Source: Nanobdellota archaeon
GTDB taxonomy: Archaea; Nanobdellota; Nanobdellia; Pacearchaeales; GW2011-AR1
Assembly (NCBI GenBank): GCA_049324275.1
Contig: JBMOLG010000010.1
Location: 147,977-211,976 of the forward strand
DNA: 64,000 nucleotides
Direction of reading: 5' to 3'
This document shows positions 1,326 through 41,845 of this stretch, piece by piece. The notes beneath the pieces were generated by a model, which saw nothing but the letters and a program-made list of their open reading frames with translations, had not been told where the DNA came from and made no database searches. Every line of letters begins with the position of its first letter. The first letter of the stretch is position 1. A program made the position numbers and the translations under genes.

Positions 1326-2438
1326 TTATTCACGCTTTAATATTTTCTTTCCCAAATTAACCATGAGACTTTTAATAAAATTTTCTTTCAGATAGATTGC
1401 ATTATTTGGGCAGACTTCAATACAACAGAAGCATTTTATGCATTTCTCATTCATGCAATTTAAAGAGTTATTATTAAAAGAGATGGCATTAATCGGGCAT
1501 TTTTTTTCACATAGCCTGCATAACTTGCATTTGTCCCTATTGATTTTTATTTTTGGATTTGGAAATAATCTCAACATAAAAAATGCCAATTTTGGAAATG
1601 AATTCGGTTTTTGAAAATTTAATTTAACATCTTTCCCGCTACCTAAAACTTTTATCTGTTCTCTTTTTATTTTTGACAGCTTATTTGTGTATATCTTAAA
1701 AGGCTTGAATCCCATTATTTCCGATGCTATTATATCTGTTGCCTCTGCATTTGTCCCTGCAATAATCAATTGAGACTTTGTTTTTTTCCCTGCTTTTCCA
1801 GGACCTTCTCCTTCTATTCCTTCTATTCCGTCAATTATATTTAATTCAGGTTTGACCTCTTCATATATTCTAAATAACAAATCTGAAAATTCTTTTGCAT
1901 TTGGGAATAGTTTATGGTAAAAAGATTTTGTTTTGCCAGGGACAAGGCCATAAAGATTCTTTATGCATAAGCTCACGCCTGTAAGCCCATGAGTTTTCAT
2001 TTTCGCGACATTGATGACAATATCAAAGTCAAATACGGTCTTTGTTAGAATTATTTTTTTATCCTTGAAGCTGATTATTTTTTTATCATAATCTTCGAAA
2101 TTTATTATTGTAGCATATTTAGACAATTTTTTTATTCCACAGATTTCTAATGCATCTTTTGTATCATGCGAAGAACTATCCCCGATAAATATTTGTGCGT
2201 TAAACTTTTGCAGAATCTTGCATAACTCTTCTAAAATAATTGGATTAGTCGTAATCGCGTTTTCAGGCTTTTCAGGGATAAGAAGGTTTGGCTTGATGAG
2301 AACTTTCATATTTTTTTTAAGTTTAAAATCAATATTTCTTAGGCTGTTATCTAATGCTTTCTTGACTCTTTCCCTATCATAACTTTGACATTTTTCAATG
2401 CTGACTTTATAACTTGAACAATTTTTTTGCATTTCCAA
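1326..2438 (-). CDS. DUF362-like protein with C-terminal 2x[4Fe-4S] ferredoxin domain
   Basis: 'MKVLIKPNLL' and a glycine-rich 'IDGIEGIEGEGPG' body fit the DUF362 type. Two CxxCxxCxxxCP motifs are present ('CKLCRLCEKKCP', 'CIKCFCCIEVCP'). The start may be an internal Met, because the annotated start overlaps the tatD stop by 32 nt. Confidence 0.7.
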   Translation of the reverse strand: MEMQKNCSSYKVSIEKCQSYDRERVKKALDNSLRNIDFKLKKNMKVLIKPNLLIPEKPENAITTNPIILEELCKILQKFNAQIFIGDSSSHDTKDALEICGIKKLSKYATIINFEDYDKKIISFKDKKIILTKTVFDFDIVINVAKMKTHGLTGVSLCIKNLYGLVPGKTKSFYHKLFPNAKEFSDLLFRIYEEVKPELNIIDGIEGIEGEGPGKAGKKTKSQLIIAGTNAEATDIIASEIMGFKPFKIYTNKLSKIKREQIKVLGSGKDVKLNFQKPNSFPKLAFFMLRLFPNPKIKINRDKCKLCRLCEKKCPINAISFNNNSLNCMNEKCIKCFCCIEVCPNNAIYLKENFIKSLMVNLGKKILKRE

Positions 2439-3204
2439 ATATTTGCACTGACGCTTCCTCTTTTGTTATTCTTTTTATTTTTGCAATTTCTTCAATTGTG
2501 ACTGCTATGTTTGCTGGTTCATTCCTTTCGCCGGGTGAATGAGATAGAAACGGAGAATCTGTCTCTGTTAATATTTGTTTTATATCGACGATTTCAGTTA
2601 AAATTTTGAAATGATTCAATCTTTTTATTATTGGCGGAATTGAAAAAAACCAGCCATTTTCAAAACTTCTTCTTATTAATTTTTTGTTTCCCATAAAGCA
2701 ATGCATCACAACATTTTTTATTTTGGAAGTTTCCAGGATTTCAATTGCATCTTGTTCTGCTTTTCTTGAATGCACAACTATTGGCTTATTCATTCTTTCT
2801 GCTAATTCTATCATGCTAAGAAAAATTTTTTTCTGTTCATTCTCTTTTCCCTGTATCCAGAAATAATCCAAACCGCATTCGCCAATTGCGACGCATTCAT
2901 TTTTATTTTTTTCAATCCATTCAATTTCTTTATTAATACTGAATGGCTTTGCTGTCGGAAAATTCAGTTTTTTATTGAGTTCGGGATTATTGGCTAATAA
3001 AGCGTCAATTGCAAGTATTCCAAAGCTTGGCTTAATAATATCAAATTTTTTTGAGAGCTCGAGGCTTTTTCTGTTATTTTCAGGCATTGTGCCTGCATTT
3101 ATTATTTTTTTTACTCCGGCTTTTTTTGCCCTTTCGATTACTTTATCCAAATCTTTTTCAAAATCTTTATGTTCTAAATGGGCATGCACATCAATAATAT
3201 TCAT
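2407..3204 (-). CDS. tatD: TatD-family metal-dependent hydrolase/DNase
   Basis: 'IDVHAHLEH', 'IGECGLDYFW', 'VVHSRKA', 'VMHCF' and 'LTETDSPFL' are the canonical TatD metal-ligand motifs, in the expected order. Confidence 0.85.
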   Translation of the reverse strand: MNIIDVHAHLEHKDFEKDLDKVIERAKKAGVKKIINAGTMPENNRKSLELSKKFDIIKPSFGILAIDALLANNPELNKKLNFPTAKPFSINKEIEWIEKNKNECVAIGECGLDYFWIQGKENEQKKIFLSMIELAERMNKPIVVHSRKAEQDAIEILETSKIKNVVMHCFMGNKKLIRRSFENGWFFSIPPIIKRLNHFKILTEIVDIKQILTETDSPFLSHSPGERNEPANIAVTIEEIAKIKRITKEEASVQIFGNAKKLFKL

Positions 3205-3254
3205 GAATATTTTAGAAGGTTAAGTTATATAAATGTAATTCATAAAAAAATATC

Positions 3255-3838
3255 ATGGTAAGCTTAAATGAGAAAAATTGTATAATTGTTCATGGTTGTA
3301 GCATCTATAGAAAAGAAAAATTAGCTAGGGGGAAATCTCTACCAAATATGAATCATTGGATTCCCTGGATAAAAAATGAACTTGAAACAAATGGCATTGT
3401 ACCCTATGCTCTGCTTATGCCTAAAGATTGGAAACCAAATTATAACGAATGGAAAAAGGAATTTGAAAAAATAAACATAACTAATGATTCGATCCTGGTT
3501 GGTCATAGCGCTGGTTGTACTTTTCTGCTCCATTGGTTAAGTGAGGCGAAAAGAGAAGTGAATAAATTGATTTTAGTTTCACCTCGCTAATTCTTGAAGA
3601 TAAATTTAGGGCATTAAAAGAATTATATGACTTCGAATTAAATCAGGAAATTAAAAATTTTGTTGACAAAATATTTATTTTTATTTCAAATGATGAAAAT
3701 CACATTATTAAATCATCACAGATATTAAGCAAAAAATTTTATATAACCCCTATTGAATTAATAGGAAAAGGGCATTTTACATTTAAAGATATGAAAACAG
3801 AAAAATTTCCTGAACTTTTAAGTGTTATTTTGAATTAA
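3255..3838 (+). pseudogene. YdeN/RBBP9-like alpha/beta serine hydrolase, interrupted by a frameshift
   Basis: The N-terminal ORF (3255-3590) carries the nucleophile elbow 'LVGHSAGC' and ends at a TAA. The family's C-terminal half ('IFIFISNDENHII...LIGKGHFT') continues without a start codon in another frame, which is open 3566-3838. Confidence 0.55.
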
Positions 3839-3844
3839 TCCTTT

Positions 3845-5326
3845 TTATTTTTGTAAAGACTGAATATAACTCTCAGGAATAGGAAGGGGAAAAACCTGCT
3901 GTTCTCTCCATAGTTGAGCCCTTACAAATTGAGATACAGGAACTTCTGCTTTTCTTTTAAAACAAATCGGCTCTGGTTTTGCACACATTCCGATGCTGTA
4001 ACTATGATCTTCAAGTAATTCGAGATTTGACAAGGCATTTAATATGCCTCCTGTAACTTGAACTGGAGGTATTCTTTGCAATTCTGAGTTATTTAGAATA
4101 TAACATTCGTGTGAAGTTAATCGAAAGGTCTTAAGGTCAGAGTCTGTATCTCCGCTTTGTGGAATCATAATTAATTTTTCTTCTAAATCTAAATTTTTTG
4201 TTATGCCGTCCAAAACTGTGCAGCTCATCCTTGATTGAGGAAACATTCCATCGATAAACTGTGACGCATTTCCCGGACGGGAGCCATTTCCGATTCCCAT
4301 ATAATCATTTAATTTTTCTAAATCAGCATATTCACTACCTAAAAATTCATTGACTTGGCCATTTTCTATATGCGTTTTGCTTTCTCTTTTCCTTCCATAA
4401 GCATCAAAATAGGTAAATCCTATTGGTCTAAATTCAGCAATAGTTGTATTTGCATCGTCTTTCAATAGAAGATTTACATTCTTTAATCTTTGCATGATCC
4501 TAAATGGATTTGATTCTCCAAAATTTAAACATCTGATCGGCTCTTCGAAATGATGTCCGAATATTTCATGTATCGGAACTCCATTTAAAATTACTATATC
4601 ATAAATCCCCTGCCGTAGATTTTTGCATTCTATCTTACTGGAAACATTATATATTTCATTCAAGGCTTTAAAAAATGTATTAGCATTTCTAATTCTTTTA
4701 TCAGGCGTAGGGTCAGGGAGATATTTTATAATATTATACAAATTTTTCATTTCTTCTTTAGAATTGCATGCAACCCCTATATGCCTATTAACGTCTAATG
4801 GATTGTATCCTTGTGCATAGGAAATATGAAAAAAAGGAATACTTTGAATTTTTATTCCTCCTTTTGAATTTACAACTATCTTTTGTTCAATAGTAAGCCA
4901 TCTTGTTATCTTTACATCCTTGTGCTCTTTTGTAAAATCCTGAAATTCTTCATCATAAAAATTTATATGTGAAGGGTTCTTTTCATAAAAAATGAGCTTA
5001 TCTTCTGGCAATGGAATCTCTTTCTGCAAGAATTTGAATCTACATCCTGTAAGAGCCCCTGAAGTTGATATTTGCTTTAAATTGTGTTTGAATACATCAT
5101 CTGAATTCGTCGTAAAATATATTCCGGAATCCATGTCTTCTTTATTTAAATTACAAGACCTATTTGTCCAGCATGTTTTTTTCCCGTCTATAAAATGGGC
5201 GCCGGTTGTTAAAAGCCGAAAGCATCTGTAAATTACCTTTGTTTTTGAATCTTTTATTTCATCATGCATAGCCTGAGCTATGTCTTCCAAGTCGGATTTT
5301 GTTTTTATCAATTCTTTAAAAGCCAT
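3845..5326 (-). CDS. TldD/PmbA-family putative metallopeptidase (divergent)
   Basis: HExxxH-type motif 'IHEIFGHHFEEP' (compare TldD HEAVGHGLE) and a C-terminal 'GMCAKPEP...AEVPVSQ' resembling the TldD/PmbA 'GxC...vPvs' end motif. Confidence 0.6.
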   Translation of the reverse strand: MAFKELIKTKSDLEDIAQAMHDEIKDSKTKVIYRCFRLLTTGAHFIDGKKTCWTNRSCNLNKEDMDSGIYFTTNSDDVFKHNLKQISTSGALTGCRFKFLQKEIPLPEDKLIFYEKNPSHINFYDEEFQDFTKEHKDVKITRWLTIEQKIVVNSKGGIKIQSIPFFHISYAQGYNPLDVNRHIGVACNSKEEMKNLYNIIKYLPDPTPDKRIRNANTFFKALNEIYNVSSKIECKNLRQGIYDIVILNGVPIHEIFGHHFEEPIRCLNFGESNPFRIMQRLKNVNLLLKDDANTTIAEFRPIGFTYFDAYGRKRESKTHIENGQVNEFLGSEYADLEKLNDYMGIGNGSRPGNASQFIDGMFPQSRMSCTVLDGITKNLDLEEKLIMIPQSGDTDSDLKTFRLTSHECYILNNSELQRIPPVQVTGGILNALSNLELLEDHSYSIGMCAKPEPICFKRKAEVPVSQFVRAQLWREQQVFPLPIPESYIQSLQK

Positions 5327-31010: not shown

Positions 31011-33479
31011 ATGGAATTAGATTTTATCCCAATAGATTATTCCAATTTCGATTTTAATGAAAATAATTATGTTAGGCTAATTGGAAGAACAAGAGAAGGA
31101 AAAAGAATTTGTGTTATTGATAATTATGATGCAAATTTTTGGGTTATACTTAAGGAAAATGTTAATGAAAAACGCATTGATTCAATTAAAAAAGAGATTG
31201 AAAAGATTGAAATTAAATCTGCTTCTAGGACCACCAAGGTTTTGAAAACTGAAATTTTCAATAAAAAATTTTTAGGCAAAGAAGTAAAAGCCATAAAAGT
31301 TTTCATTACTAACTATAAAGATGCACATGCAGTTGCGGACAGGATTGATTTTGATGAAGTTGACAAACGAAGAGAATTTGATATTTCTTTAATTTCAAAA
31401 TACATCATGGAAAAGAATATTAATCCATTGACATGGCATAGTGTTAGTGGGGAACTTTTGAAGCCAAGAGATTTTGAAGGCATTAATTTTAATTTAAATA
31501 TTGACTTGTGTATAAAAGCCGAAAAAATATGGCTGTCTGAAAATCAGGAAGTATTTGAGCCGAAAATTCTTGCTTTTGATATTGAAGCTGATGAATTTGA
31601 AATTGGGAAGGGGGATGTTCTGATGATTTCATTGTATGGGAAAAATTTCAAAAAAGTATTAACTTGGAAAAAATGTTCAATTAGGCAGGATTTTGTAGAA
31701 TGTTCAAAGAATGAAAAAGATATGCTAGAAAGATTCGTTCATTATGTAAGGGAATATGATGCGGACATTTTAACAGGATACTTTTCTGACGGATTTGATC
31801 TGCCTTATCTTAGGGCTAATGCAATAAAAAATAAAATCCGCCTTTCTTTGGGCGTAGATAAATCTCAGCCTATTTTTGCACGGGGGAGAATTCCTTCTGG
31901 AAAACTTTCAGGAATTGTTCATGTTGACTTATTTAGATTTATAGAAGCTGTCTATTCTCAATATCTGCAATCTGAAACCTTGTCATTGGATGAGGTTGCA
32001 TCCGAATTGCTAGGAGAAAGAAAGTGCGAGTTTGATTTTGCCAAGCTAATGAAAATGAAAGAGGATGATTGGAGGCAATTTTTTGAATACAACCTTAATG
32101 ATTCCTGCCTTACTTATAAATTGGCTGAAAAACTTTGGCCGGATCTGTTTGAATTTACAAAAATTATGAAAGAGCCATTATTTGATGTTTCAAGGGATAG
32201 CATGTCTTCGCATGTTGAAAATTACATTCTTCACAATCTAAGCCGATTTAATGAAATTGCAGAGAAAAGGCCATTGCATGATGAAATTATTTTAAGGAGG
32301 GGAAGGGAAAAATATGAGGGTGCTTTTGTTTTTCAGCCAAAACCGGGATTGTATGAAAATATAGTTATATTTGATTTTACAAGCATGCATGCGAGCATAA
32401 TTGTTTCTTTTAATATTTCAAAATCTACATTTCTTGAAAAAAAACAAAAAGACTCTTATGAATCTCCTGAATTGGATTTTAATGGAAAAAAAATTAAATT
32501 TTATTTTTCAAAGAAAAGCGGATTTTTCCCGGAACTTCTTTCAGAGATTGTAGATAAAAGAAAGCAATTTAAGAAAGAGCTTAAAAAAAATCCCAATCCT
32601 ATCTTGAAGGCAAGAAGCAATGCATATAAACTTTTAGCCAACGCTTCATACGGTTATCTTGGATTTTTTGGGGCAAGATATTATTGTGTCGAGGCTGCGG
32701 CCACAACATTGGCACTTGTAAGAAAATTTACAAATGAGACAATTAAGAAAATTGAAAGCAATGGATATGAAGTTATATATTCTGATACGGATAGTGTCGC
32801 ATTTTTAGCCGGAAATAAATCTCAAAATAATGTTTTGGACTTATTGGGTGTGATTAATTCTGAACTTCCCGGCATAATGGAATTGGAATTGGAAGATTTT
32901 TATAAAAGGGGCCTATTTGTTTCGAAAAGAACTGTGAAGTTAGGGGCAAAGAAAAAATATGCATTGATTGATTTCAAGAATAAATTAAAGATACGTGGAT
33001 TTGAAACAGTAAGAAGAGATTGGTGTGAGCTAACACGTGATTTGCAAAACAAAGTCCTTGAAAAAGTTTTGACTAATGGAGATGAAAAAGAAGCATTAAA
33101 ATTAATCAAGGAGGTGGTTAGTAAGGTAAAAAGGCGAGAAATTGATAAAAAATTATTGATAATCAAGTCGCAGTTAAGGAAGGACATAATGGATTACAAG
33201 GCAATTTCACCACACGTTATTGCGGCTAGAAAAATGATTGAACAAGACATTCCGATTTCTCAAGGCTCATTGATTGAATTCTATATTGCTGAGAATAATC
33301 AAAAAAAATCTCTCGTAAGAGAAAAAGTAAAACTGCCAAATGAAGAAGGAAATTATGATATTAATTATTATCTTGAAAGACAAGTCCTCCCTGCCGTTGA
33401 AAATATTTTAGAAGTATTTGGAGTTGATATTAAAAATATTATTAATGGAAAAAAGCAAATGAAACTTGGAGAATTTTAG
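31011..33479 (+). CDS. polB: Family B DNA polymerase
   Basis: Exo I 'FDIEA', pol motif A 'DFTSMHASII', motif B 'KLLANASYGY', motif C 'YSDTDS'. The C-terminal 'QMKLGEF' is PIP-like. There is no intein. A TATA-like box at 30982-30990 lies 20 nt before the ATG. Confidence 0.93.
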   Translation: MELDFIPIDYSNFDFNENNYVRLIGRTREGKRICVIDNYDANFWVILKENVNEKRIDSIKKEIEKIEIKSASRTTKVLKTEIFNKKFLGKEVKAIKVFITNYKDAHAVADRIDFDEVDKRREFDISLISKYIMEKNINPLTWHSVSGELLKPRDFEGINFNLNIDLCIKAEKIWLSENQEVFEPKILAFDIEADEFEIGKGDVLMISLYGKNFKKVLTWKKCSIRQDFVECSKNEKDMLERFVHYVREYDADILTGYFSDGFDLPYLRANAIKNKIRLSLGVDKSQPIFARGRIPSGKLSGIVHVDLFRFIEAVYSQYLQSETLSLDEVASELLGERKCEFDFAKLMKMKEDDWRQFFEYNLNDSCLTYKLAEKLWPDLFEFTKIMKEPLFDVSRDSMSSHVENYILHNLSRFNEIAEKRPLHDEIILRRGREKYEGAFVFQPKPGLYENIVIFDFTSMHASIIVSFNISKSTFLEKKQKDSYESPELDFNGKKIKFYFSKKSGFFPELLSEIVDKRKQFKKELKKNPNPILKARSNAYKLLANASYGYLGFFGARYYCVEAAATTLALVRKFTNETIKKIESNGYEVIYSDTDSVAFLAGNKSQNNVLDLLGVINSELPGIMELELEDFYKRGLFVSKRTVKLGAKKKYALIDFKNKLKIRGFETVRRDWCELTRDLQNKVLEKVLTNGDEKEALKLIKEVVSKVKRREIDKKLLIIKSQLRKDIMDYKAISPHVIAARKMIEQDIPISQGSLIEFYIAENNQKKSLVREKVKLPNEEGNYDINYYLERQVLPAVENILEVFGVDIKNIINGKKQMKLGEF

Positions 33480-37695: not shown

Positions 37696-38580
37696 ATGGA
37701 AAAACAAGTAATTGAAGATTATATTAATGCAGGAAGAATCGCTTCAGAAGTTGTAAAATTTGCCAAGAACTTTATTAGGCCAAATATGTTTCTAATTGAA
37801 ATTGCTGAAAAAATCGAAGGCAAAATTCAGGAACTTGGCGGAAGTATTGCTTTTCCTGTGAATCTTTCTCTTAATGAAGTTGCTGCACATTATACTCCTG
37901 GTTTGAGTGATAGAACAAGAGCAGGAGGAATACTTAAGGTGGATTTGGGCGTAGATATTAATGGTTATATTGCTGATTGTGCATTTTCTCTTGACCTTTC
38001 TGAAAAAAGTGAATTCGAGGACATAATTAAAACAAATGAAAAAGCACTGGAATCCGCTTTATTGGTGATAAAATCGAATGTTAAGATAGGAGAAATTGGA
38101 AGTGCTATTCAAAATTTTGTCGGCTCAAAATTTTCAATTGTTAAAAACTTATCCGGCCATTCTTTAGAAAAAGATTCTATTCATTCCGGAATAACTATCC
38201 CTAATTATTCAAATGATAACATGAACAAATTGAAGAATGTAGCAATTGCTATTGAACCTTTTTTGACTTTTGGAGATGGTTATGTTTATGAATCTTCAAA
38301 ATCTGAAATTTTTATGCTTCAAGATGATAAGCCATTAAGAGATAAAGATTCTCGTGCCTTGCTTAAATTCATAAAAGAAAATTATAAAACAAAGCCTTTT
38401 TGTAAACGATGGCTTGAAAGGGCAAACCTTTCTAAAATAAATTTTTCTTTAGCTCAACTTTGCCATCAGGGCATTTTGCATAATTTTCCTGTTTTAATTG
38501 AGAAAAGCAAAAAACCGGTAAGCCAATTTGAGCATACCGTTTTGATACTTGAAGAAAAGGCAATTATTACGACGAGGTAA
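37696..38580 (+). CDS. map: Methionine aminopeptidase, type 2 (archaeal)
   Basis: 'VAAHYTP', 'KVDLGVDINGYIADCAFS', 'LSGHSL', 'IAIEPF' and 'QFEHTVLI' are the metal ligands, in order. I prefer the ATG at 37696 to the track's TTG at 37693. Confidence 0.88.
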   Translation: MEKQVIEDYINAGRIASEVVKFAKNFIRPNMFLIEIAEKIEGKIQELGGSIAFPVNLSLNEVAAHYTPGLSDRTRAGGILKVDLGVDINGYIADCAFSLDLSEKSEFEDIIKTNEKALESALLVIKSNVKIGEIGSAIQNFVGSKFSIVKNLSGHSLEKDSIHSGITIPNYSNDNMNKLKNVAIAIEPFLTFGDGYVYESSKSEIFMLQDDKPLRDKDSRALLKFIKENYKTKPFCKRWLERANLSKINFSLAQLCHQGILHNFPVLIEKSKKPVSQFEHTVLILEEKAIITTR

Positions 38581-38590
38581 TATAAAAATC

Positions 38591-38809
38591 ATGTTGAGCT
38601 TTAAACAAAAATTGATTATTTGCATTCACATCTTTAGTATTATTTTGTTTACTTTATCGCCATTTGTTTTTAGCTGGAAACTAATTCTGTTGGGCATCTT
38701 TATTTTTTATGTTCAGCTAATCATTTTTGGAAACTGCATCCTTACCAGAATTCAATTTAATTCTAAAAAAAATTTAGAAAGCTTTTATTATTTTGTTTTA
38801 AAAAATTAG
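38591..38809 (+). CDS. Small two-TM membrane protein
   Basis: I prefer the ATG at 38591 ('MLSFKQKLIICIHIF...'). The upstream part of the track ORF overlaps map. Confidence 0.4.
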   Translation: MLSFKQKLIICIHIFSIILFTLSPFVFSWKLILLGIFIFYVQLIIFGNCILTRIQFNSKKNLESFYYFVLKN

Positions 38810-38980: not shown

Positions 38981-41845
38981 ATGACTCATATTAAAAAGCT
39001 GGTGATTCATGGCTTTAAAAGTTTTGCAAATAAAACTGAAATTCCTTTTGAAAATGCTATGAATGTTGTAGTCGGTCCAAATGGTTCAGGCAAATCAAAT
39101 ATTACTGATGCATTATGCTTTGCTTTAGGAAGGTTATCTATTAAGTCAATAAGGGCTGCAAAAGCTGCAAATCTTTTATTTTCCGGAAATAAATATCATA
39201 AGCCTGCTGGCGAAGCATTTGTTGAACTTGTCTTTGACAATTTTGACAAAACTTTTGCGATGGATGCAAATGAAGTTTCCATAAAAAGGATTGTAAGAAA
39301 AAATGGGCTTTCAATTTATAAAATAAATAATACTGTTAAAACAAGGCAGGAAATTGTCGAATTATTAGCTCAGGCAGGGATTGATCCAAATGGCTTTAAC
39401 ATTGTTTTGCAGGGGGAGATCGCATCATTGATAAAAATAAATCCCGAAGAAAGGCGAAAAATAATAGAAGAAGTTGCAGGCATTTCCATTTATGAATCAA
39501 GAAAAGAGAAGTCACTAAAAGAGATAGAAAAAACTGATGAAAAGCTTAAAGAAGTTTCTGCAGTTTTGAGAGAAAGAATAGCTTATCTGAAAAATCTTGA
39601 AAGGGAGCGCGAGGAGGCATTGAATTTCCAAAAGCTTGAAGAGACAATTAAAAGATGCAAATTAACCATTATCTCAAAAGAGCTTAAAGATAAAGAGAAA
39701 GAAATAGAAAACCTGAACAAGGAAATAGAAAACCTGAACAAGGAAATAGAAAAGATTAAAGAGCAGATTAAGAAAAAATCTCAAATTGTCGAAGAACTTG
39801 AACTAAAAGCAAACCAGATAAGTAAACAGATTCAATCGTCAACCAGCAATGAGCAGGAAACACTTCACAAAGAAATTTCTGAATTTAAAGCACAAATTGC
39901 GGGGCTAAAAGTGAGAAAAGAAAATTTTGAAAATAGGATTCAAAGCAACAAATCCAAAAATGTTACATTTAAAGACAAAATAAAAACGCTTGAAAAGGAA
40001 ATTTCTGAAATTAAAACTTCTTCACCTGAAATAAAAAAACAACAGGAGAAAGTCAAAAATTATCAGGAAAAACTTGATTCATTAGAAAAGGACAGAAGAA
40101 GATTCTATTTCATAAAATCTGAACTTAACACACTGCAAAATAAAAAGTCTGAAAAAGAAAGATTTCTCATTGAACTGAAAAAAGAAGCTGATATGATTGA
40201 AAAAAATATTTCCTCTCTTTTTACTGAGATAAAATATGTTAAATCATCCGAAAAAGGTGCAACTTTAAAACAGGAAATTTCAAGAAATATATCTGAAATA
40301 TCCGAAAAGCTTGCACTTTTCTCTAAGAAAGAATTAGAAATGGAAAAAGAAAATGCAATTTTAAGCATGGAAATTTTGAAGGAAGAGGAAATAAAAAAAG
40401 AAATTTTAAAGCTTGATATTTGCCCTCTTTGCAAAAGCAAGGTAACAAAGGAACATATTAATAAAGTCGTAGCAGAATCTGACCATAAAATTGAGGCTGC
40501 TAAAAAAAAGCAGGAACAGAATGAAAAAGAAAAGATTAAGACAAAAAATGAATCTGAAGAGTTAAAGCAAAAATTAGAATCTCTTAAAATTAAATTAAAT
40601 GAGATTGAGATTGATATTTTCAAAATAAGGAATGCTGATGAAAAAAAAGAACAGATTAAGAGAATTCTTGAAAATGAAAAAAGTTCAAAGTCAGAAGCTG
40701 AAGAAATATCTTTAAAGATTGAAGTTTTAAGAAAGGAATTTGAGAAATTAAAAAATGTTGAAGAAGAATATGATGATATGAGGCTGAAGCTCCAGGAAAT
40801 TTCATTTTTTGATATGGATGTTGATACAGAGATTACTATTAAGCAGAGAGAATTAAGCCGATTAAGCGTAGAGATAAAATCCATTTCCCGGGATGAGGAA
40901 GAAACTGAGGGGGAATTAAAATCCATAAATGAAAGGCTTAAGGAGAATGAAAAAATTCTTGAAACAAAAGAAATTGAAGAGCAGAAACTTTATGAGAGGT
41001 TTCAAAAACTTTTCAATGAAAAGAATGCCATTCAAGACAACCAAAAAGCAGTCGAAACTGAGATAATTGGGATGCAGAATATATTAAGAAATCATGAAGA
41101 TAAAAATAACCTCTTTAATATTCAGAAGGCAAAATTTAATGCTGAAAAAGAATCTATTGAGTTCGGGCTTAAAGAATTTGAATCTTTGGAACCTTTGCAG
41201 ATTTCATTTGAGCAGGCTAAGGAAAAATTGTCCAAGTCTCAAATGAAAATTTCTGAAATAGGCTCTGTTAATCTTCGTTCATTGGACATTTACAATCAAG
41301 TTAAAGAGCAATGTGATCAGGTCCAAGAAAAAATGAGCACCATTGAAAAAGAAAAAGAAAAGATAAGCAAAATTATTGAGGAAATAGACAAGAAAAAGAA
41401 AAAGTCTTTTTTAACTACCCTGGATGCTGTTAATGGGTTCTTTACAAGGAATTTTTCCCAATTAAGCAATAAGGGCGAAGTTTTTTTAGATTTGGAAAAC
41501 AAGAAGGAGCCTTTCGCAGGCGGGTTGAATATAATCATAAAAGTTGCTAAAGGAAAATATTTTGATGTCACTTCCTTGTCTGGCGGAGAAAAAACTTTAA
41601 TTGCCTTATCATTAATATTTGCAATCCAGGAATATAAACCCTACTGTTTCTATATATTCGATGAAATTGATGCTGCATTAGACAAGCATAATTCTGAGAA
41701 ACTCGCTGCATTAGTCAAGCAATACATGACCTGCGGGCAATACATAATAATTACCCATAATGATGCGTTGATTTCAGAGGCGTCTGCATTATATGGGGTT
41801 TCTATGCAGGAGAATATTTCGAAGATAATTAGTTTGAAGATTTAA
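38981..41845 (+). CDS. SMC-like ATPase with a central CPxC (zinc-hook-like) motif instead of a recognisable hinge
   Basis: SMC-type head: 'GFKSFANKTEIPF...VVGPNGSGKSNITDALCFALG', 'LQGEIASLIKINPEERRKIIEEVAGIS', signature/Walker B 'LSGGEKTLIALSLIFAIQEYKPYCFYIFDEIDAALD', and 'YGVSMQE'. Between the two head halves there is only K/E-rich coiled coil, with 'DICPLCKSKVTKEHI' at residues 481-484 of 954. Confidence 0.85.
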   Translation: MTHIKKLVIHGFKSFANKTEIPFENAMNVVVGPNGSGKSNITDALCFALGRLSIKSIRAAKAANLLFSGNKYHKPAGEAFVELVFDNFDKTFAMDANEVSIKRIVRKNGLSIYKINNTVKTRQEIVELLAQAGIDPNGFNIVLQGEIASLIKINPEERRKIIEEVAGISIYESRKEKSLKEIEKTDEKLKEVSAVLRERIAYLKNLEREREEALNFQKLEETIKRCKLTIISKELKDKEKEIENLNKEIENLNKEIEKIKEQIKKKSQIVEELELKANQISKQIQSSTSNEQETLHKEISEFKAQIAGLKVRKENFENRIQSNKSKNVTFKDKIKTLEKEISEIKTSSPEIKKQQEKVKNYQEKLDSLEKDRRRFYFIKSELNTLQNKKSEKERFLIELKKEADMIEKNISSLFTEIKYVKSSEKGATLKQEISRNISEISEKLALFSKKELEMEKENAILSMEILKEEEIKKEILKLDICPLCKSKVTKEHINKVVAESDHKIEAAKKKQEQNEKEKIKTKNESEELKQKLESLKIKLNEIEIDIFKIRNADEKKEQIKRILENEKSSKSEAEEISLKIEVLRKEFEKLKNVEEEYDDMRLKLQEISFFDMDVDTEITIKQRELSRLSVEIKSISRDEEETEGELKSINERLKENEKILETKEIEEQKLYERFQKLFNEKNAIQDNQKAVETEIIGMQNILRNHEDKNNLFNIQKAKFNAEKESIEFGLKEFESLEPLQISFEQAKEKLSKSQMKISEIGSVNLRSLDIYNQVKEQCDQVQEKMSTIEKEKEKISKIIEEIDKKKKKSFLTTLDAVNGFFTRNFSQLSNKGEVFLDLENKKEPFAGGLNIIIKVAKGKYFDVTSLSGGEKTLIALSLIFAIQEYKPYCFYIFDEIDAALDKHNSEKLAALVKQYMTCGQYIIITHNDALISEASALYGVSMQENISKIISLKI
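39701..39753 (+). repeat. 21-bp tandem repeat (2.5 copies) inside the SMC-like coiled coil
   Basis: 'gaaatagaaaacctgaacaag' occurs twice, followed by 'gaaatagaaaa'. It encodes 'EIENLNK EIENLNK EIEK'. Confidence 0.9.

What the first reader, a model, noticed from the sequence alone, without database searches (positions are those of the whole stretch)
38981..41845. SMC-type head domains joined by a coiled coil with a Rad50-style CPxC hook at the exact midpoint, and no hinge
Both the N- and C-terminal sequences are of the SMC type, not the Rad50 type. They include 'GFKSFA...GPNGSGKSNITDA', 'QGEI...PEERRKIIEEVAGIS', 'LSGGEKTLIALSLIFAI...FDEIDAALD' and 'YGVSMQE'. The protein is only 954 aa long. 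Residues 170-800 are continuous K/E-rich heptad-like sequence, and I see no glycine-rich hinge segment. Instead 'DICPLCKSKVTKEHI' (C481-x-x-C484, nt 40421-40432) sits at the centre. That is where the apex of an antiparallel coiled coil would be, and it closely resembles the Rad50 zinc hook context 'CPVCGRELTDEH'. This points to hook-mediated rather than hinge-mediated dimerisation in an SMC-headed protein. It is reminiscent of hingeless archaeal SMC-related proteins, but the SMC-like head is notable. No kleisin (ScpA/B) or Mre11 gene is adjacent.
Basis: partly seen in the sequence, partly recalled or inferred. Interest (0 to 1): 0.6.

Follow-up and report, generated by a model that had tools for sequence, protein, structure and literature searches.

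The report
Archaeal SMC with zinc hook apex
This gene encodes the chromosome-organising SMC ATPase of a tiny DPANN archaeon (Pacearchaeota group) in which the hallmark hinge domain is replaced by a short Cys-Pro-x-Cys zinc hook that most resembles the hook of the same lineage's Rad50 repair protein, so it is a natural version of a domain swap so far described only as a laboratory chimera.

Summary
ORF 38981-41845 (+) encodes a 954-aa protein with SMC-type heads (TIGR02169 527 bits; Rad50 models 97 bits or less). It has no hinge and carries CPLC at residues 481-484.

AlphaFold2 predicts two long helical arms joined by a 14-residue loop that holds the CPLC.

The motif is invariant in all 120 closest database homologues and in every 950-1035-aa SMC of the order. 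None of 121 genomes in the order has an SMC_hinge domain, whereas 359 of 401 sampled in the phylum do.

Head trees place these proteins inside the hinge-bearing SMCs of the same class and far from Rad50. The genome also encodes ScpA, ScpB and a separate mre11-rad50 operon, so this protein is its only SMC, the Smc of Smc-ScpAB.

A profile of the 125-aa apex, searched against 1.84 billion proteins, finds only hook-SMCs and the short Rad50s of this lineage. This points to an apex acquired from rad50.

A second, independent hook-SMC clade exists in Iainarchaeia. Some relatives have lost the hook as well.

Zinc-mediated dimerisation is inferred, not shown. I found no published description. This scan has logged the same architecture in at least 36 other genomes.

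The parts
38981..41845 (+). smc gene: 954-aa hinge-less, hook-bearing SMC (stop codon 41843-41845)
   Evidence: ORF and translation. SMC_N 171 bits. TIGR02169 527 bits. Pyrococcus Smc heads 1e-99 in the PDB.
38981..39484 (+). N-terminal half of the ATPase head (residues 1-168), with Walker A GPNGSGKS at nt 39074-39097 and Q-loop Q144
   Evidence: Motif residues are invariant in 97 homologues. The AF2 model shows a beta/alpha head. 45-47% identical to P. furiosus Smc head structures.
39485..40405 (+). N-terminal coiled-coil arm (residues 169-475), with short helix breaks at 345-348 and 417-422
   Evidence: AF2 secondary structure. Aligns to positions 1-474 of the 1165-position SMC_prok_A model together with the head.
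40406..40447 (+). Apex loop (residues 476-489) with the CPLC putative zinc-hook motif at nt 40421-40432
   Evidence: AF2 full-length and fragment models; the fragment has pLDDT 93.7. C481, P482 and C484 are invariant. Sequence read directly.
40379..40510 (+). Stretch matched by Pfam Rad50_zn_hook PF04423 (model positions 4-51 of 52; 19.9 bits, below the 24.3-bit cut-off)
   Evidence: Genome scan hit G000:C10:188355-188486, converted to window coordinates. A profile of the order's own Rad50 hooks scores 25.9 bits here. BLASTP against the genome's own Rad50 aligns hook on hook, E 8e-5.
40448..41464 (+). C-terminal coiled-coil arm (residues 490-828), with breaks at 590-592, 609-615, 733-742 and 761-766
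   Evidence: AF2 secondary structure.
41465..41842 (+). C-terminal half of the ATPase head (residues 829-954), with signature LSGGEK at nt 41576-41593, Walker B FYIFDEID at nt 41648-41671 and H-loop H926
   Evidence: Motif residues are invariant. PDB matches to Smc C-terminal head halves.

Best explanation
This is the organism's single SMC protein, the Smc subunit of an Smc-ScpA-ScpB condensin-type complex. Its roughly 150-190-residue hinge has been replaced by a short zinc hook.

Inferred mechanism. Each chain folds back on itself, so that the N- and C-terminal halves form one ABC ATPase head at the end of an antiparallel coiled-coil arm of about 300 residues. The CPLC sits in the loop at the arm tip. 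Two chains each contribute two cysteines to one tetrahedral Zn2+ site, as in Rad50, which gives a constitutive homodimer joined at the apex. ScpA bridges the two heads and ScpB binds ScpA, closing a ring that uses ATP to entrap and translocate on or extrude chromosomal DNA.

Inferred origin. The apex module of roughly 110 residues was most likely acquired by recombination with the lineage's own rad50 gene in an ancestor of the order (Pacearchaeales-like, DPANN). It has been kept in most of that order since.

Shown here: SMC identity of the heads, absence of a hinge, conservation and apex position of CPxC, presence of ScpA, ScpB and a separate Mre11-Rad50, and specific similarity of the apex to the lineage's Rad50 hooks.

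Inferred only: zinc binding, dimerisation through the hook, and the activity of the complex.
For: Heads are SMC.
- TIGR02169 scores 527 bits and TIGR02168 505 bits. Rad50 models score 97 or less, ASRP 108 and arcadin-4 44.
- Best PDB sequence hits are Pyrococcus Smc heads at 1e-99; Rad50 reaches 2e-16.
- Foldseek on the full model: condensin Smc4 1e-32 and P. yayanosii Smc 1.5e-27; the first Rad50 is at rank 16.
- In head trees, Rad50 is separated from all SMCs by branches of about 3-4 substitutions per site on each side (100 SH-aLRT). The order's SMCs form a 100-supported clade nested within hinge-bearing SMCs of the same class.

No hinge.
- No SMC_hinge in the protein, in the genome or in any of 121 genomes of the order. 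By contrast, 359 of 401 genomes sampled in the phylum have it, in ORFs of about 1165 aa.
- In a full-length alignment, 150-158 hinge residues of canonical relatives face about 25 residues here.

Hook.
- CP[LVITM]C is present in 120 of 120 homologues at the same position.
- CPxC is present in all 950-1035-aa SMCs of the order.
- The AF2 apex hairpin has pLDDT 93.7 with CPLC in the loop.
- Its best PDB fold matches are the P. furiosus Rad50 Zn hook 1l8d, then 5gox and 6zff.
- Pfam Rad50_zn_hook hits the centre of these SMC ORFs across the order. About two dozen hits are above the curated cut-off, the best at 39.6 bits.
- An HMM built from 8 local Rad50 hooks hits all 32 hook-SMCs at the hook and none of 18 hinge or bare SMCs.

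Origin from Rad50.
- The apex profile was searched against 1.84e9 proteins. The best 149 hits are 28 hook-SMCs, 81 Rad50s of this lineage (E down to 4.5e-10, aligned over about 110 positions) and 40 fragments without heads. No unrelated coiled-coil proteins appear.
- BLASTP of the own apex against the genome's own Rad50 aligns hook on hook: 13/37 identities, E 8e-5.

Partners.
- ScpA is at G000:C6:168152-168787 and in 29 of 31 relatives.
- ScpB is at C6:176173-176610 and in 31 of 31 relatives.
- A separate mre11-rad50 operon lies on contig C18.
- There is no second SMC in the genome.

Precedent. [quoted passage not shown]
Against: - No experiment or multimer model shows zinc binding or dimerisation.
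- For this particular protein the Pfam Rad50_zn_hook score is 19.9 bits, below the 24.3-bit cut-off.
- With CPxC masked, the similarity of its flanks to local Rad50 hooks is not significant (1.9 bits).
- The Foldseek E-values for the apex are not significant (0.011 or higher), because helical hairpins are generic.
- Some families of the same order have SMCs with neither hinge nor CxxC, yet keep ScpA and ScpB. A covalently or metal-joined apex is therefore not indispensable in this lineage.
- Shared K/E/I/N-rich composition in these low-GC genomes could inflate the apex-to-Rad50 profile scores.
- The protein falls below the NCBIfam SMC equivalog cut-off (527 against 729 bits).
Confidence: 0.75

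Rival explanations
1. The protein is a zinc-hook SMC as described, but the CPxC apex arose by convergence. The hinge was deleted and a CxxC turn then evolved in place. It was not acquired from rad50.
For: For this protein, the flanks alone do not score significantly against local Rad50 hooks once CPxC is masked (1.9 bits). A second hook-SMC clade in Iainarchaeia has different flanks (CPVC[DE]S.L...KK), which shows the solution can arise more than once. Shared amino-acid composition could favour hits to proteins of the same lineage.
Against: The apex profile finds this lineage's Rad50s, and nothing else, among 1.84e9 proteins. E-values reach 4.5e-10 over about 110 aligned positions. With CPxC masked, the best hit of the Rad50-hook HMM still falls on the hook in 24 of 32 SMCs, and it is significant in several (13-18 bits). 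The shared T-x-[ED]-H motif lies 4-7 residues after the second Cys.
Confidence: 0.12
2. The CPxC is not an intermolecular zinc hook. It is a structural turn, an intramolecular metal or redox site, or a partner-binding site. The two arms are held together by other means: rod-like arm-arm contacts, the heads and the kleisin.
For: Relatives with 'bare' SMCs lack both hinge and CxxC but keep ScpAB, so apex joining by zinc is not essential. There is no direct evidence of zinc binding. A nearby His492 is at least 90% conserved in close homologues.
Against: Only two Cys are invariant at the apex, and His492 is replaced by Tyr in several orthologues. An intramolecular four-ligand site is therefore unlikely. 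The motif, its spacing, the Pro after the first Cys and its position at the tip of an antiparallel coiled coil are exactly those of Rad50 hooks. CPxC is invariant across sequences whose flanks have diverged to about 40% identity.
Confidence: 0.1
3. The protein is a Rad50-like or ASRP/ClsN-like paralogue that works in DNA repair or compartment formation, not the canonical condensin-type SMC.
For: A central zinc hook is otherwise the hallmark of Rad50/SbcC and of ASRPs (PMC9389158). No kleisin gene is adjacent.
Against: The Rad50, ASRP and arcadin-4 models score 44-108 bits, far below their cut-offs, against 527 bits for SMC. Head trees put it inside SMC. The genome has its own mre11-rad50 operon, has ScpA and ScpB, and has no other SMC.
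Confidence: 0.03

Closest known systems
Prokaryotic/archaeal Smc of Smc-ScpAB (TIGR02169/TIGR02168; e.g. Pyrococcus Smc, PDB 5xei, 5xns, 4i99)
   Same: Head sequence and fold, all ATPase motifs, arm length of roughly 300 residues per strand, ScpA and ScpB present in the genome, a single copy per genome, and a phylogenetic position inside archaeal SMCs.
   Different: The hinge domain (PF06470), a defining SMC feature, is absent and is replaced by a loop of about 14 residues carrying CPxC. The protein is about 200 aa shorter and falls below the NCBIfam equivalog cut-off.
[quoted passage not shown] 2017, PMC5344682). The reverse swap, Rad50 with a MukB or Smc hinge, is in Tatebe et al. 2020, PMC6969161.
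   Same: The same architecture: SMC heads and arms with a Rad50-type zinc hook apex. The chimera supports Smc function in vivo, which shows the design is workable.
   Different: This protein is natural, fixed across a whole archaeal order, and the donor appears to be the lineage's own Rad50. Nothing here has been tested experimentally.
Rad50/SbcC (with Mre11/SbcD)
   Same: A CPxC zinc hook at the tip of an antiparallel coiled coil. The apex region of about 110 aa is specifically similar to this lineage's short (about 680-aa) Rad50s.
   Different: The heads are very distant: phmmer with this protein does not find the genome's own Rad50 at E<0.01. There is no adjacent Mre11. The genome carries a separate mre11-rad50 operon.
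ASRP family (ClsN/coalescin, Sph1, Sph2; NF045487), the archaea-specific SMC-related proteins with a zinc hook (Takemata 2019; Yoshinaga 2022, PMC9389158)
   Same: Archaeal, SMC-superfamily heads, no hinge, zinc-hook motif at the centre.
   Different: The ASRP model scores only 108 bits (cut-off 300) against 527 bits for SMC. ASRPs form a separate family. This protein is the orthologue of canonical SMC and keeps ScpAB as partners.
'Hinge-less' SMC cluster of marine Actinobacteria (Sussfeld et al. 2025, PMC12153180)
   Same: SMC-type proteins that have lost the hinge.
   Different: Those are bacterial and are explicitly reported to lack the CXXC motif. They resemble the 'bare' forms seen here in some sister families more than the hook form.

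Membership tests
Prokaryotic SMC (Smc of Smc-ScpAB) | Split ABC ATPase head of SMC type (Walker A at the N-terminus; signature motif and Walker B at the C-terminus) | tested here: met
   PF02463 171 bits. TIGR02169 527 bits. Pyrococcus Smc heads 1e-99. Motif residues invariant.
Prokaryotic SMC (Smc of Smc-ScpAB) | Head groups with SMCs rather than other superfamily members in a phylogeny | tested here: met
   It lies in a 100-supported clade nested within hinge-bearing SMCs of the same class. Rad50 is separated by branches of about 3-4 substitutions per site.
Prokaryotic SMC (Smc of Smc-ScpAB) | Long intramolecular antiparallel coiled-coil arm | tested here: met
   AF2 predicts helices at 169-475 and 490-828. 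The apex hairpin model has pLDDT 93.7. This is prediction only.
Prokaryotic SMC (Smc of Smc-ScpAB) | Central globular hinge dimerisation domain (PF06470) | tested here: not met
   No hit in the protein at E<=1, in the genome or in 121 genomes of the order. No globular centre in the AF2 model.
Prokaryotic SMC (Smc of Smc-ScpAB) | Score above the NCBIfam equivalog cut-off (TIGR02169: 729.4 bits) | tested here: not met
   526.8 bits. The shortfall corresponds to the missing hinge segment.
Prokaryotic SMC (Smc of Smc-ScpAB) | Kleisin ScpA and ScpB encoded in the genome | tested here: met
   ScpA at G000:C6:168152-168787, 35.4 bits, over the cut-off. ScpB at C6:176173-176610, 111.5 bits. Physical interaction was not testable.
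Rad50/SbcC | CxxC zinc hook at the coiled-coil apex (PF04423) | tested here: inconclusive
   The own protein scores 19.9 bits, below the 24.3-bit cut-off (E 7e-4 per genome). About two dozen orthologues are above the cut-off, the best at 39.6 bits. The local Rad50-hook HMM gives 25.9 bits.
Rad50/SbcC | Rad50-type head (NCBIfam Rad50 models; SbcC_Walker_B) | tested here: not met
   Best Rad50 model 97 bits against a cut-off of 700. Head tree.
Rad50/SbcC | Partner nuclease Mre11/SbcD, usually encoded adjacent | tested here: not met
   The neighbours are a methionine aminopeptidase and an Ig-like surface protein. The genome's mre11-rad50 pair is on contig C18.
ASRP (ClsN/Sph1/Sph2, NF045487) | Score above the family cut-off (300 bits) | tested here: not met
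   108.3 bits.
Arcadin-4 (NF053563) | Score above the family cut-off (860 bits) | tested here: not met
   44.5 bits.
Hinge-less actinobacterial SMC cluster (Sussfeld 2025) | Bacterial (actinobacterial) SMC clade lacking both hinge and CXXC | not tested
   No sequences of that cluster were available. By the paper's description it lacks CXXC, which this protein has.

The most novel reading that the evidence does not exclude
The apex modules of SMC and Rad50 are naturally interchangeable, and the swap has happened repeatedly. In at least two DPANN lineages (the Pacearchaeales-like order and Iainarchaeia), the Smc of Smc-ScpAB independently exchanged its hinge for a zinc hook. In the lineage studied here, recombination with its own rad50 is the likely route. 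In several sub-lineages the hook was then lost as well, leaving 'bare' mini-SMCs that still work with ScpAB. If this is right, neither the hinge nor any covalent or metal apex joint is essential for SMC-kleisin function in vivo.
Probability: 0.45. Interest if true: 0.78.

Novelty: new variant of a known kind. Interest (0 to 1): 0.62.

Why it matters
The hinge is treated as a defining and functionally important part of SMC proteins. It is credited with dimerisation and DNA binding, and in some models it is a DNA entry gate.

A whole archaeal order, and independently a second DPANN lineage, runs its only Smc-ScpAB with a minimal zinc hook instead. This is a natural experiment showing which SMC functions cannot depend on the hinge. 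It matches the engineered B. subtilis Smc(Zh) chimera and extends that result to evolution.

The 'bare' relatives push the question further: is any apex joint needed at all?

These small proteins could be convenient minimal models for structural and single-molecule work on loop extrusion.

There is also a practical annotation issue. These proteins fall below the SMC equivalog cut-off. Members of the parallel Iainarchaeia hook-SMC family are sometimes labelled only 'AAA family ATPase'.

Tried and rejected
1. Rad50 identity was rejected on HMM scores, PDB hits and head trees.

2. ASRP/ClsN and arcadin-4 membership was rejected on NCBIfam scores.

3. I first concluded that the genome has no Rad50, because phmmer with this protein found nothing else. 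That was wrong. tblastn with relatives' Rad50 found a 680-aa Rad50 with an upstream Mre11-like gene on contig C18.

4. I tested for a conserved membrane-protein gene upstream of smc, a lead from an earlier finding in another phylum. In this order the upstream gene is usually RNase HII-like, and the small ORF at 38549-38809 in this window is not conserved.

5. The Foldseek search with the apex model gave Rad50 hooks as top hits, but no E-value was significant. I use it only as weak support.

6. I looked for a conserved apex motif in the 'bare' SMCs and found none.

7. Three literature searches found no paper describing a natural SMC with a zinc hook in DPANN archaea. The library lacks most subscription journals.

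8. A dimer structure prediction could not be run, because the tool takes single chains only.
Full report
**Observation.**
The ORF at 38981-41845 (+) is intact and encodes 954 aa. It carries every SMC ATPase motif:
- Walker A, GPNGSGKS, residues 32-39
- Q-loop, Q144
- signature motif, LSGGE, residues 866-870
- Walker B/D-loop, FDEIDAALD
- H-loop, H926

All of these residues are invariant in an alignment of 97 homologues. The codons at 40421-40432 read tgc cct ctt tgc, which is C481-P-L-C484. Pfam finds SMC_N and generic AAA models only, with no SMC_hinge even at E<=1.

**Which family the heads belong to.**
- NCBIfam scores are 527 bits for SMC_prok_A and 505 for SMC_prok_B. The best Rad50 model reaches 97, ASRP (ClsN/Sph) 108 and arcadin-4 44.
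- The N-terminal 477 residues align collinearly with positions 1-474 of the 1165-position SMC model. The arm as well as the head is therefore SMC-like.
- The best solved-structure relatives are Pyrococcus Smc heads (1e-99); Rad50 reaches 2e-16.
- I built head-only maximum-likelihood trees from the N-terminal 175-185 and C-terminal 165-170 residues. They separate Rad50 from all SMCs by branches of about 3-4 substitutions per site on each side, with 100% support.
- In these trees the SMCs of this organism's order form a fully supported clade nested within the hinge-bearing SMCs of other orders of the same class.

**No hinge, in a whole lineage.**
- The window's genome is 0.9 Mb in 19 contigs, 86% complete, with GC 30.6%. 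It has no SMC_hinge match anywhere.
- None of 121 genomes sampled from the same order has one.
- In contrast, 359 of 401 genomes sampled from the phylum do, in ORFs of about 1165 aa. No same-family genome appears among the 359. The hinge-less genomes that are listed are all of the window's own family; 22 more were not listed.
- The order's SMC ORFs are 950-1035 aa long.
- In a full-length alignment, the 150-158 hinge residues of canonical relatives face about 25 residues here.
- GTDB species representatives that carry close homologues are labelled Pacearchaeota, Nanoarchaeota or Woesearchaeota MAGs. Database homologues are annotated simply as 'chromosome segregation protein SMC'.

**The hook.**
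- All 120 best database homologues (59-68% identity, nearly all exactly 954 aa) have CP[LVITM]C at the same position.
- All 32 hook-type SMCs sampled across seven families of the order, down to about 40% identity, have CPxC at the centre.
- The full-length AlphaFold2 model has pLDDT 77.9. It shows helices at 169-475 and 490-828, joined by a loop at 476-489 that contains CPLC, and no globular centre.
- A model of residues 421-545 is a confident helical hairpin (pLDDT 93.7, pTM 0.74) with the motif in the apical loop.
- Among 350,542 PDB chains, the best fold matches of that model are the P. furiosus Rad50 Zn hook (1l8d chains B and A). Human Rad50 hook (5gox) is at rank 4, and the P. furiosus Rad50 rod (6zff) has TM 0.76. 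None of the E-values is significant (0.011 or higher), as expected for a simple hairpin.
- Pfam's Rad50_zn_hook model, scanned over the genomes of the order, hits the centre of these SMC ORFs nearly everywhere. About two dozen hits pass the curated cut-off, the best at 39.6 bits over the full model. The window's own hit is at 40379-40510 with 19.9 bits, just below the cut-off.

**Where the hook came from.**
The same scan revealed a second set of ORFs of 680-720 aa with Rad50-type N-termini and a central CPxC. These are short, genuine Rad50s of the lineage.
- Their hook context is '...L.. CPVC KQEV..EHK.KI'. The SMC hooks read 'KLDI CPLC KSKIT.EH...', which is similar.
- An HMM built from eight of these Rad50 hooks hits the hook of all 32 hook-SMCs (8.8-42 bits; the own protein 25.9 bits). 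It hits none of 18 hinge-bearing or hook-less SMCs.
- With CPxC masked, the best hit still falls on the hook in 24 of 32 sequences. It is significant only in some lineages and not for this protein.
- BLASTP of the own apex against the genome's own Rad50 aligns hook on hook, with 13/37 identities and E 8e-5.
- The strongest evidence comes from a profile of the 125-residue SMC apex searched against 1.84 billion representative proteins. It gave 247 hits at E<=1e-3. Of the best 149, 28 are hook-SMCs and 81 are Rad50s whose heads are 43-68% identical to this order's short Rad50s. These Rad50s reach E 4.5e-10 and align over about 110 positions centred on their CPxC. The other 40 are fragments without heads. 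No unrelated coiled-coil protein appears.

I therefore favour acquisition of the apex module from the lineage's own rad50. The caveat is that shared low-GC amino-acid composition may help proteins of the same lineage to score.

**Partners and paralogues.**
- ScpA is encoded at G000:C6:168152-168787 and in 29 of 31 relatives.
- ScpB is encoded at C6:176173-176610 and in 31 of 31 relatives.
- No second SMC exists in the assembly.
- My first reading that Rad50 is absent was wrong. Contig C18 carries a 394-aa metallophosphoesterase (Mre11-like) gene that overlaps the start of a 680-aa Rad50 with a CPTC hook.
- phmmer with the SMC did not detect that Rad50 at E<0.01, which underlines how different the heads are.
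- The immediate neighbours of smc in the window are housekeeping genes: an RsmB-like methyltransferase, a methionine aminopeptidase and an Ig-like surface protein. In relatives the upstream gene is usually RNase HII-like.

**Mechanism (inferred).**
The protein is the Smc of Smc-ScpAB. Two chains are joined at the arm tips by one Zn2+ held by four cysteines, instead of by a hinge. ScpA and ScpB close the ring at the heads, and ATP binding and hydrolysis drive DNA entrapment and translocation. Only two cysteines are invariant at the apex. The nearby His492 is replaced by Tyr in several orthologues. An intramolecular four-ligand site is therefore unlikely. Feasibility is supported by the engineered B. 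subtilis Smc carrying the P. furiosus Rad50 hook, which is functional (PMC5344682), and by the reverse swap in yeast Rad50 (PMC6969161).

**Wider picture.**
1. A 5.5-kb contig binned into one Pacearchaeota MAG encodes a divergent hook-SMC, 28% identical to this one. Its family consists of 980-1005-aa proteins from Diapherotrites/Iainarchaeia MAGs, with the motif 'A.CPVC[DE]S.L...KK'. In the head tree that clade (97% support) groups with other hinge-bearing SMCs, not with the Pacearchaeales clade. AU tests reject a single clade of all hook-SMCs (p 2.4e-9) and of all hinge-less SMCs (p 2.6e-17). The groups were named after I had seen the tree. This indicates at least two independent hinge-to-hook replacements.
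2. Families f5, f6 and f7 and several genera of f4 of the order have 'bare' SMCs of 780-900 aa with neither hinge nor CxxC. They are still SMC-type (about 505 bits) and still have ScpA and ScpB in the genome. One of them is sister to a hook-SMC of its own family (100% support), so at least that one is a secondary loss. How these forms are joined at the apex is unexplained.

**Novelty.**
Four related things are known:
- zinc hooks in Rad50/SbcC
- zinc hooks in the SMC-related ASRP family (PMC9389158)
- engineered Smc-hook chimeras
- a hinge-less actinobacterial SMC cluster without CXXC (PMC12153180)

Three full-text searches found no description of a natural canonical SMC with a zinc hook. The library is incomplete. 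Earlier notes of this same scan record the same architecture in at least 36 other genomes. Those are unchecked AI notes, not independent evidence, but they mean this window is one more member rather than a first sighting within the project. I rate it a new variant of a known kind.

Noticed in passing
L061-L066 (G023:C26, G024:C31, G448:C1, G022:C9, G029:C34, G440:C1); also P0194, P0205, P0206, P0209-P0212, P0218: 'Bare' SMCs of 780-940 aa in sister families of the same order and among Iainarchaeia-type relatives. They have SMC-type heads but no hinge, no CxxC and no recognisable apex motif. Their genomes keep ScpA and ScpB. How their arms are joined is unknown.
   Followed up: partly
L067 (G487:C1), L068 (G443:C24), L070 (G501:C11), L096 (G240:C41): Some SMC genes, both hook-type (about 1490-1516 aa) and hinge-type (about 1700 aa), carry an intein of about 530 aa (Intein_splicing plus LAGLIDADG). 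It is inserted in the Walker A P-loop, directly after GPNGSGK.
   Followed up: partly
L069 (G430:C20:300-3900); P0121-P0212: A second family of hook-bearing, hinge-less SMCs (980-1005 aa, motif CPVC[DE]S.L...KK) from Diapherotrites/Iainarchaeia MAGs. Head trees and AU tests indicate an origin independent of the Pacearchaeales hook-SMCs. The 5.5-kb contig carrying L069 in a 'Pacearchaeota' MAG is probably mis-binned.
   Followed up: partly
L140 (G000:C18:1-9500), ORFs 1248-2432 and 2422-4464: The window's genome has an overlapping mre11-like (394 aa, Metallophos) and rad50 (680 aa, CPTC hook at residue 347) gene pair. This Rad50 is unusually short, and 680-720 aa is the typical length across the order.
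   Followed up: partly
P0229, P0232, P0234: SMCs of about 830 aa that keep the hinge domain (PF06470) but have much shorter arms. In the head tree they branch next to the Nanoarchaeia SMC clade.
   Followed up: no
window 40105-40926 (-) and 41317-41571 (-): Long antisense ORFs inside smc (273 and 84 aa) translate to low-complexity S/F/L-rich sequence. They are the mirror image of the K/E-rich coiled-coil codons and very probably not genes.
   Followed up: no
window 38549-38809 (+): An 86-aa ORF (TTG start) with two hydrophobic stretches lies between the methionine aminopeptidase gene and smc. It has no Pfam match and is not conserved upstream of smc in relatives, where an RNase HII-like gene usually sits.
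   Followed up: yes
window 31011-33479 (+): An 822-aa ORF whose sequence, read by eye, carries family-B DNA polymerase motifs (YGDTDS-like 'YSDTDS'). It lies upstream in the same orientation. I did not run it against any library.
   Followed up: no
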